From Escherichia coli (GTDB lineage: Bacteria > Pseudomonadota > Gammaproteobacteria > Enterobacterales > Enterobacteriaceae), in the NCBI RefSeq assembly GCF_048403405.1, contig NZ_CP183129.1: DNA of 64,000 nt. One strand, written 5' to 3'. Shown piece after piece: positions 54,321-55,871 of the stretch (position 1 is the first letter of the stretch; each line of letters begins with the position of its first letter). Below the pieces are notes generated by a model. That model did not search any database, was not told the DNA's origin, and was given only the letters and a program-made list of their open reading frames with translations. The position numbers were made by a program, and so were the translations under genes.

Positions 54321-54352
54321 GTGCCCCGAACGTTGAATGAATTGTGGTTCTT

Positions 54353-55129
54353 ATGTCCGAAACAAAAAACGAACTTGAAGATCTGCTGGAAAAAGCAGCA
54401 ACCGAACCGGCGCACCGCCCGGCCTTTTTCCGTACGCTACTGGAATCCACCGTCTGGGTGCCGGGTACGGCGGCGCAGGGCGAGGCTGTGGTTGAAGATA
54501 GCGCGCTTGATTTACAGCACTGGGAAAAAGAAGACGGCACCAGCGTCATTCCTTTTTTTACCTCGTTAGAAGCACTTCAACAGGCGGTTGAAGACGAACA
54601 GGCATTTGTCGTAATGCCCGTTCGCACATTGTTTGAGATGACCCTTGGCGAAACGCTCTTCCTTAATGCCAAACTGCCGACCGGTAAAGAATTTATGCCG
54701 CGTGAAATCAGTTTGTTGATTGGTGAAGAAGGAAATCCGCTGAGCAGCCAGGAAGTACTGGAGGGCGGTGAATCGCTGATATTATCGGAAGTCGCAGAGC
54801 CACCAGCACAAATGATTGATTCACTCACCACCTTATTTAAAACTATTAAGCCGGTGAAGCGTGCTTTTATTTGTTCAATTAAAGAGAACGAAGAGACACA
54901 GCCTAATTTACTTATTGGCATTGAAGCCGATGGTGATATCGAAGAAATTATTCAGGCGGCGGGAAGTGTAGCGACCGATACATTACCTGGCGATGAACCC
55001 ATCGATATTTGTCAGGTGAAAAAAGGGGAAAAAGGAATTAGCCACTTTATTACCGAACATATTGCGCCATTCTATGAACGTCGCTGGGGTGGCTTTTTGC
55101 GTGACTTTAAACAGAACCGGATAATCTAA
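54353..55129 (+). CDS. sseB: SseB, enhancer of serine sensitivity (258 aa)
   Basis: ORF 54344..55129; start at MSETKNELEDLLEKA. Confidence 0.85.
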   Translation: MSETKNELEDLLEKAATEPAHRPAFFRTLLESTVWVPGTAAQGEAVVEDSALDLQHWEKEDGTSVIPFFTSLEALQQAVEDEQAFVVMPVRTLFEMTLGETLFLNAKLPTGKEFMPREISLLIGEEGNPLSSQEVLEGGESLILSEVAEPPAQMIDSLTTLFKTIKPVKRAFICSIKENEETQPNLLIGIEADGDIEEIIQAAGSVATDTLPGDEPIDICQVKKGEKGISHFITEHIAPFYERRWGGFLRDFKQNRII

Positions 55130-55134
55130 AATAT

Positions 55135-55152
55135 GCCGCCCCAAAGGGCGGC
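55135..55152. terminator. hairpin shared by sseB (+) and the convergent ryfA-like RNA (-)
   Basis: gccgccc-caaa-gggcggc; on the minus strand the stem is followed by AUAUUUUAGAUU. Confidence 0.55.
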
Positions 55153-55160
55153 ATTCGGGC

Positions 55161-55298
55161 TTACTTGCTGCTCTGAAGTTTGTTAACCACCAGTAAATTG
55201 TTACCGGAGAGACTCCGGTTATTATTTACCTCGGTTAACAGCGCACCAGAAACAATAAGTACGATACAAAAGCACCGTATCTTCATTGTGCGGTCCAT
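55161..55298 (-). CDS. candidate small hydrophobic (TimP/type I toxin-like) protein, 45 aa (41 aa from second ATG at 55286)
   Basis: Manual translation: MDRTMKIRCFCIVLIVSGALLTEVNNNRSLSGNNLLVVNKLQSSK; in-frame TGA five codons upstream of the first ATG; no obvious SD; too short for the ORF track. Confidence 0.4.
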   Translation of the reverse strand: MDRTMKIRCFCIVLIVSGALLTEVNNNRSLSGNNLLVVNKLQSSK

Positions 55299-55505
55299 GC
55301 GAAGACCGCATCACGACAGCACCACTGGCGATATTGCCGCGATAGCAAGCGCTGAGACGCGCTTGCCCTAACGGTCGCGGAACATCCTTTCCTTGAGCCA
55401 GCGCCCGCTTGCGAGACGGCGGAAAGGGCCGGTGTCGATAATACGCTAAATAAACAATGATTACTCTCTTTCGCTTGACAAAAAGAGAGTTACTGGCGAG
55501 TATTG

Positions 55506-55606
55506 TGTCCGCTGAGACGCGCTTGCATTACTACGGTAATACAATCTGCTGGAAAGGCCGCGAACCAAACCAGCAACAAATAACCGCCTGATTTTGGCGG
55601 TTTTTT
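55506..55606 (+). ncRNA. candidate antitoxin-type sRNA, module 1 (approximate)
   Basis: TTGACA (55475-55480)-18 bp-AGTATT, then about 100 nt ending in aaccgcc-tgatttt-ggcggtt + TTTTTT (55582-55606); nt 55510-55526 are perfectly complementary to the minus-strand RNA at 55350-55366. Confidence 0.45.
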
Positions 55607-55784
55607 GTTGCTTAAAGAAAGTGAATTTACATGTTTAAGTAATATCTTTTACCGGTTAGTATTTTTAATATTGAGCGGGATTTGTTTATATTTGTCTGAA
55701 TTCGGACTGATAAGCCAAATGAATTCAAAATCTATCCTTTTTTATCTACTTGACATCGTTGATGCATAAAGCGAGTATTGAGTA

Positions 55785-55871
55785 GACGAGATACACTTGC
55801 AGTAATACAACCTGCTGGAAAGGCCGCGAACCAGACCAGCAATAAAAAACCGCCAAATTCGGCGGTTTTTT
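55785..55871 (+). ncRNA. candidate sRNA, module 2, paralog of module 1 (approximate)
   Basis: TTGACA (55750-55755)-18 bp-AGTATT, then a shared core ctgctggaaaggccgcgaacca-accagcaa and terminator ccgcc-aaattc-ggcgg + TTTTTT (55850-55871); lacks the 17-nt complementary box. Confidence 0.4.

What the first reader, a model, noticed from the sequence alone, without database searches (positions are those of the whole stretch)
55350..55526. 17-nt perfect antisense match between a divergent sRNA-like module and the 5' region of the ryfA-like RNA
The plus-strand segment cgctgagacgcgcttgc occurs twice, at 55350-55366 and 55510-55526. The first copy lies within the minus-strand RNA, about 50 nt upstream of the hydrophobic ORF. 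The second lies at the 5' end of a plus-strand unit with its own TTGACA promoter and terminator. An RNA from module 1 would therefore form a perfect 17-bp duplex with the toxin-type mRNA leader, the arrangement of trans-encoded type I antitoxins.
Basis: seen in the sequence. Interest (0 to 1): 0.55.

Follow-up and report, generated by a model that had tools for sequence, protein, structure and literature searches.

The report
Known TimR antitoxin pairing with timP
The 17-base match is real and is the pairing site between the small RNA TimR and the leader of the timP (ryfA) toxin mRNA, a type I toxin-antitoxin system of E. coli and its relatives that was already described in Shigella (2017) and Salmonella (2020-2026), so it is a correct rediscovery, not a new finding.

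Summary
Observation confirmed. CGCTGAGACGCGCTTGC occurs exactly twice in the window, at 55350-55366 and 55510-55526 (0.01 copies expected by chance).

Interpretation supported, but already published. The minus-strand RNA is ryfA/timP (Rfam RF00126, 309 bits). Its ORF is TimP (NCBIfam NF040796, 83.9 bits). The plus-strand unit is a TimR/RyfB antitoxin sRNA of about 97 nt (55510-55606), and its first 17 nt pair with stem-loop 2 of the timP 5'UTR.

My own comparison of 14 loci from six genera agrees. The paired 20-mer always ends exactly 40 nt before SL4. Its sequence differs between genera, yet 96.9% of positions stay paired, and 9 of 20 pairs change on both sides. Salmonella experiments (compensatory mutants, in vitro translation, structure probing) show that TimR binding to SL2 disrupts an SL1-SL3 pseudoknot needed for translation. 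Both pseudoknot arms are present here.

The side observation is less well known. E. coli lineages carry a second TimR paralogue. In K-12 the annotated, distal copy is the cognate one. In this window the proximal copy is cognate, and the distal "module 2" (~55785-55871) has no target in the window. About 1,600 genomes carry the module-1 seed without its matching site.

The parts
55128..55432 (-). timP mRNA (ryfA RNA), full length. The TSS is placed at 55432 by homology to the K-12 ryfA annotation.
   Evidence: Rfam RF00126 at 309.3 bits (gathering 80), model positions 1-296 of 296. K-12 ryfA starts 123 nt before SL4, which corresponds to 55432 here.
55438..55443 (-). Probable -10 box (TATTAT) of the timP promoter.
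   Evidence: Read from the sequence. It lies 6-11 nt upstream of the inferred TSS. This is an inference.
55397..55403 (-). SL1 arm of the pseudoknot (CGCUGGC).
   Evidence: It is complementary to the SL3 arm. It sits at the same position (94 nt before SL4) and co-varies in 15 loci. The pseudoknot was shown to be essential for translation in Salmonella (PMC11228461).
55345..55366 (-). SL2 hairpin GCAAGCGC-GUCUCA-GCGCUUGC of the timP 5'UTR (+67 to +88).
   Evidence: Present in the MFE fold and in the Rfam consensus structure. SL2 carries the TimR site in Salmonella (PMC11228461).
55350..55366 (-). TimR-binding site, the first copy of the 17-mer. It covers the SL2 5' arm, the loop and 3 nt of the 3' arm, and includes the 'CGCGT' variable region of Fris 2017.
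   Evidence: The paired 20-mer ends exactly 40 nt before SL4 in all 14 loci.
55323..55329 (-). SL3 arm of the pseudoknot (GCCAGUG).
55290..55309 (-). SL4 (GCGGUC-UUCGCAUG-GACCGC), the stable hairpin just upstream of the start codon that sequesters the Shine-Dalgarno region.
   Evidence: The role of SL4 comes from PMC11228461 and PMC13000454.
55161..55286 (-). timP CDS, 41 aa (MKIRCFCIVLIVSGALLTEVNNNRSLSGNNLLVVNKLQSSK). An in-frame upstream ATG at 55298 would give 45 aa.
   Evidence: RefSeq annotation of the 100%-identical strain TUM14771. NCBIfam NF040796 toxic_TimP at 83.9 bits against a cutoff of 45. ORF list.
55133..55154 (-). Intrinsic terminator of the timP mRNA.
   Evidence: (9-bp stem, 7 GC pairs, T-run), and the end of the Rfam model.
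55475..55504 (+). TimR (module 1) promoter: -35 TTGACA at 55475-55480 and a weak -10 GAGTAT(T) at 55498-55504.
   Evidence: Sequence. The same -35 and GCGAGTATTG block precede module 2, both K-12 modules and the CFT073 timR. TTGACA lies 33-36 nt upstream of the seed in 13 loci.
55510..55606 (+). TimR antitoxin sRNA (module 1, the cognate copy), about 97 nt.
   Evidence: Its ends are inferred from the K-12 timR annotation (100 nt) by homology. It has the conserved body CUGGAAAGGCCGC and a terminator at 55582-55602 plus a U-run.
55510..55526 (+). TimR seed, the second copy of the 17-mer (TimR nt 1-17).
   Evidence: In a duplex scan of the whole window, the timP site is the best non-self target of this seed.
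55750..55871 (+). Module 2, a second TimR-like paralogue next to sseA. It has -35 TTGACA at 55750-55755, an RNA of roughly 55785-55871 and a terminator at 55850-55865 plus a T-run. Its seed GACGAGAUACACUUGC is not cognate to the local timP.
   Evidence: The best duplex with the leader is only 13 bp (9 WC, 3 GU). This is the position of the annotated timR in K-12.

Best explanation
The locus is the enterobacterial timPR (ryfA/ryfB) type I toxin-antitoxin module, sitting between sseB and sseA. The minus strand gives a roughly 305-nt mRNA whose long structured 5'UTR (SL1 to SL4) precedes the 41-aa inner-membrane toxin TimP. The plus strand, 78 nt away and divergent, gives the roughly 97-nt sRNA TimR. 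The first 17 nt of TimR pair with the 5' arm and loop of SL2 in the timP leader (+67 to +83). Translation of timP needs an SL1-SL3 pseudoknot and a long-range rearrangement that frees the Shine-Dalgarno sequence from SL4. TimR binding opens SL2, destabilises the pseudoknot and so blocks initiation without touching the ribosome-binding site. Shown here: the repeat, the homology of all parts, the conserved geometry, and the cross-species co-variation of seed with site and of the two pseudoknot arms. Shown elsewhere, in Salmonella: the pairing in vivo, translational repression, dependence on the pseudoknot, and toxicity. Inferred for this strain: that module 1 is transcribed from 55510, and that it represses TimP.
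For: Repeat confirmed. Full-length Rfam ryfA match at 309 bits. TimP passes NCBIfam NF040796 at 83.9 bits against a cutoff of 45, and RefSeq annotates timP in an identical strain. K-12 RefSeq annotates timR, ryfA and timP in the same sseA-sseB interval. In 13 of 14 loci from Escherichia, Citrobacter, Superficieibacter, Yersinia, Rahnella and Erwinia, the best leader/upstream duplex has 17-20 WC pairs, control regions give common substrings of only 7-12 nt, and a TTGACA and a terminator flank the sRNA. The 20-mer site ends exactly 40 nt before SL4 in all 14 loci. 96.9% of cells are paired against 81.4% in shuffles and 27-51% when partners are slid. Nine of 20 pairs change on both sides. The covariation score is 0.579 against 0.249, reached by 0 of 500 shuffles. 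Each leader's best-scoring TimR comes from its own locus: cognate mean 18.4, non-cognate 10.0 +/- 2.9. The pseudoknot arms are present and co-vary. Literature: PMC7667032 (18-nt complementarity, M6 compensatory mutants, in vitro translation), PMC11228461 (SL2 site, pseudoknot), PMC13000454 (structural switch), PMC5333039 (RyfB1 lowers RyfA1 specifically), PMC13188913 (TimR northern in CFT073 and CH138). CFT073's promoter region is identical to the window's.
Against: There is no experiment on this allele (the 'CGCGT' site paired with the CGCUGAGACGCGCUUGC seed) or on this strain. The TimR -10 box is weak and was not called by the promoter scanner. In E. coli, deleting timR gave almost no phenotype, and ryfA phenotypes did not depend on the TimP ORF (PMC13188913, PMC8205139), so the toxin side may be weak or conditional in E. 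coli. In one search the mRNA 20-mer was chosen as the best-pairing segment, which inflates the pairing percentage somewhat. It nevertheless fell at the same offset in every locus.
Confidence: 0.9

Rival explanations
1. The pairing is the same but the biological role differs. In E. coli, RyfA acts mainly as a regulatory RNA for stress resistance, fimbriae and virulence, and TimR is its RNA antagonist or partner. The duplex would then be an sRNA-sRNA regulatory pair and not primarily a toxin-antitoxin switch.
For: UPEC CFT073 ryfA phenotypes persist when the TimP ORF is destroyed (PMC8205139). In APEC, the timR deletion has little effect and the ryfA-timR double deletion restores wild-type behaviour, which suggests that free TimR is active (PMC13188913). 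RyfA1 overproduction lowers ompC in Shigella, and no peptide was detected there (PMC5333039).
Against: The TimP ORF is conserved and passes its curated family model. The SL4, pseudoknot and translation-control elements are all conserved. Toxicity and translational control are proven in Salmonella (PMC7667032, PMC11228461). The two roles do not exclude each other.
Confidence: 0.25
2. The 17-mer pair is a passive remnant of a local duplication or a chance repeat and has no RNA-RNA function.
For: The locus does contain tandem duplications of the sRNA module.
Against: The chance expectation is 0.01. In other genera the repeat has a different sequence but the same position and spacing, with 9 of 20 positions showing double compensatory changes. 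The DNA between the two copies is unrelated promoter sequence and not a duplicated unit.
Confidence: 0.02
3. The functional antitoxin in this strain is the sseA-proximal module 2, which sits where K-12's annotated timR lies, and module 1 is the bystander.
For: K-12 RefSeq places timR next to sseA. In K-12 that distal copy does pair best with the K-12 leader, with 17 WC and 3 GU pairs over 20 positions.
Against: In the window, the module 2 seed pairs poorly with the leader (13 bp, 9 WC, and not at the canonical site), while module 1 is perfect over 17 nt. Module 2 also lacks the 8-nt segment that forms the first hairpin.
Confidence: 0.03

Closest known systems
timP/TimR of Salmonella enterica (formerly ryfA/STnc2070; Andresen 2020, Eleftheraki & Holmqvist 2024, Eleftheraki 2026)
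   Same: Homologous mRNA (Rfam RF00126) and homologous toxin (NF040796). The sRNA is divergent and non-overlapping. Its 5' end pairs over 17-18 nt with SL2 at about +67 to +83 (Salmonella G76 is in the SL2 loop; the loop here is +75 to +80). The SL1-SL3 pseudoknot arms and SL4 are present.
   Different: The seed and site sequences are different alleles. Salmonella has an extra gene (STM2534) between sseA and timP. This strain has a second TimR-like paralogue. There is no experimental test for this allele.
RyfA1/RyfB1 and RyfA2/RyfB2 of Shigella dysenteriae (Fris 2017)
   Same: Same locus family. RyfB is a roughly 100-nt divergent transcript with 16-17 nt of complementarity that overlaps the 5-nt 'variable region' of RyfA. 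The window's site carries the catalogued 'CGCGT' (ryfA1-like) variant. Regulation is allele-specific (RyfB1 does not affect RyfA2).
   Different: S. dysenteriae has two complete ryfA/ryfB pairs. The window has one ryfA and two ryfB-like genes. Fris and co-workers interpreted RyfA1 as a non-coding regulator.
tisB/IstR-1, zorO/OrzO, shoB/OhsC, dinQ/AgrB (type I TA systems with divergent, trans-acting antitoxins)
   Same: The gene arrangement is the same, the complementarity to the toxin 5'UTR far upstream of the RBS is short (about 18-20 nt), and the RBS is sequestered in structure.
   Different: Those systems need mRNA processing and/or a ribosome standby site, whereas timP is unprocessed and uses a pseudoknot switch. 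There is no sequence homology. The weak AgrB Rfam hit on module 2 (28.8 bits, below the gathering score of 40) covers only the terminator-like part and does not indicate membership.

Membership tests
timPR (ryfA/ryfB) type I toxin-antitoxin | The toxin mRNA is homologous to ryfA RNA (Rfam RF00126) over its full length. | tested here: met
   309.3 bits against a gathering score of 80, model positions 1-296 of 296, at 55432..55128 on the minus strand.
timPR (ryfA/ryfB) type I toxin-antitoxin | A small ORF encodes TimP, with an N-terminal hydrophobic/signal segment. | tested here: met
   NCBIfam NF040796 toxic_TimP at 83.9 bits against a cutoff of 45, profile positions 1-40 of 40. RefSeq timP CDS in an identical strain.
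timPR (ryfA/ryfB) type I toxin-antitoxin | A roughly 100-nt sRNA is encoded divergently upstream, does not overlap timP, and has its own promoter and intrinsic terminator. | tested here: met
   TTGACA at 55475-55480, terminator at 55582-55602, and a 78-nt gap between the two inferred TSSs. It is homologous to the K-12 annotated timR and the CFT073 timR in promoter, body and terminator. Transcription in this strain was not tested.
timPR (ryfA/ryfB) type I toxin-antitoxin | The sRNA 5' end is complementary over about 17-20 nt to SL2 of the timP 5'UTR at a conserved position. | tested here: met
   A perfect 17 nt. The site ends 40 nt before SL4 in all 14 loci. Covariation: 9 of 20 pairs change on both sides, reached by 0 of 500 shuffles.
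timPR (ryfA/ryfB) type I toxin-antitoxin | The SL1-SL3 pseudoknot and the SD-sequestering SL4 are present in the leader. | tested here: met
   CGCUGGC (55403..55397) is complementary to GCCAGUG (55329..55323). Both are at the same positions and co-vary in 15 loci. SL4 appears in the fold and in the Rfam structure. Formation of the pseudoknot itself cannot be tested here.
timPR (ryfA/ryfB) type I toxin-antitoxin | Located in the sseA-sseB interval, as in E. coli K-12. | tested here: met
   sseB at 54344-55129 (+) and sseA from 55888 (-).
timPR (ryfA/ryfB) type I toxin-antitoxin | TimP is toxic when overexpressed, and TimR represses its translation through the complementary stretch. | not testable with these tools
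   Shown for Salmonella (PMC7667032, PMC11228461). Not shown for any E. coli allele. E. coli studies report little timR phenotype (PMC13188913).
cis-antisense (overlapping) type I TA such as hok/Sok | The antitoxin gene overlaps the toxin gene on the opposite strand. | tested here: not met
   TimR starts at about 55510 and the timP mRNA at about 55432. The two are divergent, with 78 nt between them.
Rfam IS128 (RF00125) | A match above the gathering score. | tested here: met
   178.8 bits against 80 at 55741..55564 on the minus strand. It lies in the spacer between the two TimR modules and overlaps the module 1 terminator in antisense. It is not part of the pairing, and its function is unknown.

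The most novel reading that the evidence does not exclude
E. coli lineages keep a second, non-cognate TimR paralogue beside a single timP, and which copy is cognate differs between lineages. In K-12 the distal copy pairs with the 'TGTTT' site, and the proximal copy carries the seed for the 'CGCGT' site that K-12 lacks. In this window the proximal copy pairs with the 'CGCGT' site, and the distal copy has a seed with no known ryfA allele. The extra copies might be more than decaying duplicates. They could be functional sRNAs that give pre-existing immunity to incoming timP alleles during recombination, or they could have acquired other targets. The second possibility could explain why 'free TimR' appears deleterious in APEC ryfA mutants.
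Probability: 0.2. Interest if true: 0.45.

Novelty: already known. Interest (0 to 1): 0.12.

Why it matters
For the finding itself, very little is new. It shows that reading raw sequence can recover a genuine type I toxin-antitoxin pairing, and it adds an independent covariation test across six genera to a mechanism already proven in Salmonella.

There is a practical point for annotation. RefSeq annotates timP here but no timR. Transferring the K-12 timR position by synteny would label the wrong (non-cognate) copy in this strain.

The side observations may interest people who study how toxin-antitoxin specificity evolves. They are: swapped cognate and orphan TimR paralogues, seed and site as two islands of divergence in otherwise identical DNA, and deletions between the seed and site direct repeats that remove both promoters at once.

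Tried and rejected
Most of the 120 loci were chance matches in GC-rich genomes, and only 13 were Enterobacterales. Salmonella was not captured, so I could not align the experimentally studied TimR directly. The comparison with Salmonella rests on the papers' text and on position numbering.

2. The consensus promoter scan did not call either TimR promoter or the timP promoter. I used homology to the K-12 annotation instead.

3. RNAduplex energies on full-length RNAs were inflated by long interior loops and are not quoted as affinities. Only the rank of the timP site among window-wide targets of the 30-nt seed was used.

4. I looked for a target of the module 2 seed in the window, using a pattern with up to 3 mismatches and a duplex scan. 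Nothing stood out.

5. I looked for a ryfA remnant in the inter-module spacer, which would point to a former second timPR pair. None was found.

6. I treated C. amalonaticus L068 as a possible TimR-less timP. It turned out to be a seed-site deletion fusion.

7. A literature search for duplicated or orphan TimR was swamped by unrelated 'TIMP' papers. I can only say that none of the five timPR/ryfA papers I read describes two TimR copies beside one ryfA.

8. The weak Rfam hits on module 2 (AgrB, RNAI, rimP leader, Leu leader, all below gathering) reflect the terminator hairpin and were dismissed.

Full report
OBSERVATION. The 17-mer CGCTGAGACGCGCTTGC occurs on the + strand at 55350-55366 and 55510-55526 and nowhere else in the window, even with 2 mismatches allowed. 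Dinucleotide shuffles give 0.01 copies, and the repeat finder reports the same pair. The bases on either side differ, so the perfect stretch is exactly 17 nt.

WHAT THE PARTS ARE. The interval lies between sseB (54344-55129, +) and sseA (from 55888, -).
- On the minus strand, 55432..55128 matches Rfam ryfA (RF00126) end to end at 309 bits against a gathering score of 80.
- The 41-aa ORF at 55286..55161 is annotated as timP in a 100%-identical RefSeq genome. It scores 83.9 bits against NCBIfam NF040796 'toxic_TimP', whose cutoff is 45.
- On the plus strand there are two related sRNA-like units. Each has a TTGACA, a shared GCGAGTATTG block, a conserved body CUGGAAAGGCCGC (only two copies in the window) and an intrinsic terminator.
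- K-12 RefSeq annotates timR (b4811), ryfA (b4440) and timP (b4812) in the same interval.
- Transferring the K-12 timR ends by homology puts the module 1 RNA at 55510-55606, about 97 nt, so the 17-mer is TimR nt 1-17.
- Transferring the K-12 ryfA start puts the timP TSS at 55432. The site is then +67 to +83 and the SL2 loop is +75 to +80. This agrees with the Salmonella numbering, where G76 lies in the SL2 loop (PMC11228461).

INDEPENDENT TEST OF THE PAIRING. I collected 13 Enterobacterales loci that contain the SL4 core: Escherichia, Citrobacter, Superficieibacter, Yersinia, Rahnella and Erwinia.
- In 12 of 14 loci (window included) the longest exact repeat between the leader and the DNA upstream lies at the same place, 38-47 nt before SL4, with copies 146-162 nt apart. 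Control regions give only 7-12 nt.
- When G-U pairs are allowed, 13 of 14 loci give a duplex of 19-23 positions with 17-20 WC pairs, preceded by TTGACA and followed by the conserved body and a terminator.
- The paired 20-mer ends exactly 40 nt before SL4 in all 14 loci.
- The sequence differs between genera, yet 96.9% of cells stay paired, against 81.4% in shuffles and 27-51% with partners slid by 1-3 columns.
- Nine of 20 pairs change on both sides (43 cells), and the covariation score is 0.579 against 0.249, reached by 0 of 500 shuffles.
- In an all-against-all matrix, every leader's best-scoring TimR comes from its own locus or from a sister species with the same seed. The cognate mean is 18.4 and the non-cognate mean is 10.0 +/- 2.9.
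- Caveat: the mRNA 20-mer was picked as the best-pairing segment within a 65-nt stretch, which biases the pairing percentage upward. The invariant offset argues that this bias is small.

MECHANISM. The mechanism is taken from experiments on the Salmonella homologue.
- An 18-nt stretch of complementarity was confirmed in vivo by compensatory M6 mutations, and TimR inhibits timP translation in vitro (PMC7667032).
- TimR binds SL2. Translation needs a 7-bp SL1-SL3 pseudoknot. TimR prefers the pseudoknot-containing conformer and destabilises the pseudoknot (PMC11228461).
- A further long-range interaction frees the Shine-Dalgarno sequence from SL4 (PMC13000454).
- In the window the corresponding elements are all present: SL2 (55366..55345), the pseudoknot arms CGCUGGC (55403..55397) and GCCAGUG (55329..55323), and SL4 (55309..55290).
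- The pseudoknot arms occupy the same positions and co-vary in 15 loci.
- The module 1 seed is largely unpaired in the predicted fold, and the timP site is its best non-self target in the window.
- That module 1 is actually transcribed is an inference. The roughly 100 nt of divergent promoter DNA are identical to those of CFT073, where TimR is detected by northern blot (PMC13188913).

COMPARISON WITH WHAT IS KNOWN. This is the timPR (ryfA/ryfB) type I toxin-antitoxin system. Fris et al. 2017 (PMC5333039) already described roughly 100-nt divergent RyfB transcripts with 16-17 nt of complementarity to RyfA overlapping a 5-nt 'variable region'. They catalogued four variants in Escherichia and Shigella: CACCC, CCCCC, CGCGT and TGTTT. 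The window carries CGCGT. Andresen et al. 2020 stated that all timP homologues they examined have a complementary upstream sRNA. Two qualifications apply. Rfam 15 has no family that matches TimR (no hit on the + strand at 55510-55606). And E. coli studies question whether the toxin matters physiologically: ryfA phenotypes are independent of the ORF, and deleting timR has little effect (PMC8205139, PMC13188913).

SIDE FINDINGS.
(i) Two TimR paralogues and a swap of which one is cognate. K-12 also has two modules. The annotated, distal one (seed UGCUGUGAAGCACCUGCGUU) pairs with the K-12 'TGTTT' site at 17 WC and 3 GU over 20 positions. The unannotated proximal one carries exactly the window's 17-mer seed but meets two mismatches in K-12. 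In the window the proximal copy is cognate. The distal copy (module 2) pairs with the leader over only 13 bp, lacks an 8-nt hairpin segment, and would need a 'TGTAT' variant that Fris et al. did not find.
(ii) Census across 5,426 complete genomes using short probes. The window-type site is in 2,908, the proximal seed is in 4,540, and the window-type module 2 is in 394. So about 1,600 genomes carry the module 1 seed without its site. Single-module genomes also exist: 442/2, CFT073, SCPM-O-B-8794 and E. whittamii.
(iii) Comparing CFT073 with the window, the differences cluster in two islands, the seed and the site, which flank identical promoter DNA.
(iv) In E. coli 06-00048 and C. amalonaticus AUH_CA_2023_1, the DNA between the seed and site direct repeats is deleted. 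This fuses the reverse complement of the TimR body to SL2 and removes both promoters and SL1. The genotype is rare in E. coli.

VERDICT. Observation confirmed. Interpretation supported. The system is already known. Interest is low for the finding itself (0.12) and modest for the paralogue question.

Noticed in passing
window 55750-55871 (+): Module 2 is a second TimR-like gene next to sseA, with an intact TTGACA, a shared -10 block, the conserved body and a terminator. Its seed (GACGAGAUACACUUGC) has no complement in the window, and it lacks the 8-nt TTACTACG segment of the first hairpin. Only its 83-nt 3' body is still similar to module 1. This version is present in 394 of 5,426 E. coli genomes.
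   Followed up: partly
L122 (K-12 MG1655) 1057-1156 and about 1380-1480, compared with window 55510-55606: Cognate swap. In K-12 the annotated timR (distal, next to sseA) pairs with the K-12 timP site. An unannotated proximal paralogue carries the window's exact 17-mer seed but has no matching site in K-12. Transferring the annotation by position would label the non-cognate copy in the window's strain.
   Followed up: partly
L125 (E. coli 06-00048) and L068 (Citrobacter amalonaticus AUH_CA_2023_1), upstream of SL2: The roughly 160 nt between the seed and site direct repeats are deleted. The reverse complement of the TimR body and terminator now runs straight into SL2 of timP, so both promoters and SL1 are lost. 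These appear to be two independent events. In 06-00048 an IS3-like ISEcB1 sits next to the fusion. The genotype is rare in E. coli.
   Followed up: partly
window 55463-55490: A 10-bp inverted repeat (ACTCTCTTT cgcTTGACAa AAAGAGAGT) brackets the -35 box of TimR. It lies in the non-transcribed 78-nt gap between the divergent TSSs. It is conserved in both K-12 modules, in CFT073 and (with one change) in E. whittamii, but is absent from module 2 and from other genera. It could be an operator for an unknown regulator.
   Followed up: no
window 55564-55741 (-): A full Rfam IS128 match (RF00125, 178.8 bits) lies in the spacer between the two TimR modules, on the opposite strand, and runs antisense into the bidirectional terminator of module 1. 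Relative to the model, 30 nt are missing. IS128 has no known function. It may simply mark the duplicated spacer.
   Followed up: no
L127 (CFT073) compared with window 55287-55625: The two strains are identical over about 100 nt of divergent promoter DNA. They differ in two short islands, the TimR seed with its first hairpin and the timP SL2 site. This pattern suggests either coupled allele replacement or co-evolution.
   Followed up: partly
window 55510-55606 (+): Rfam 15 has no family that matches TimR/RyfB, even with permissive E-value filters, and RefSeq genomes other than K-12 leave the sRNA unannotated.
   Followed up: yes
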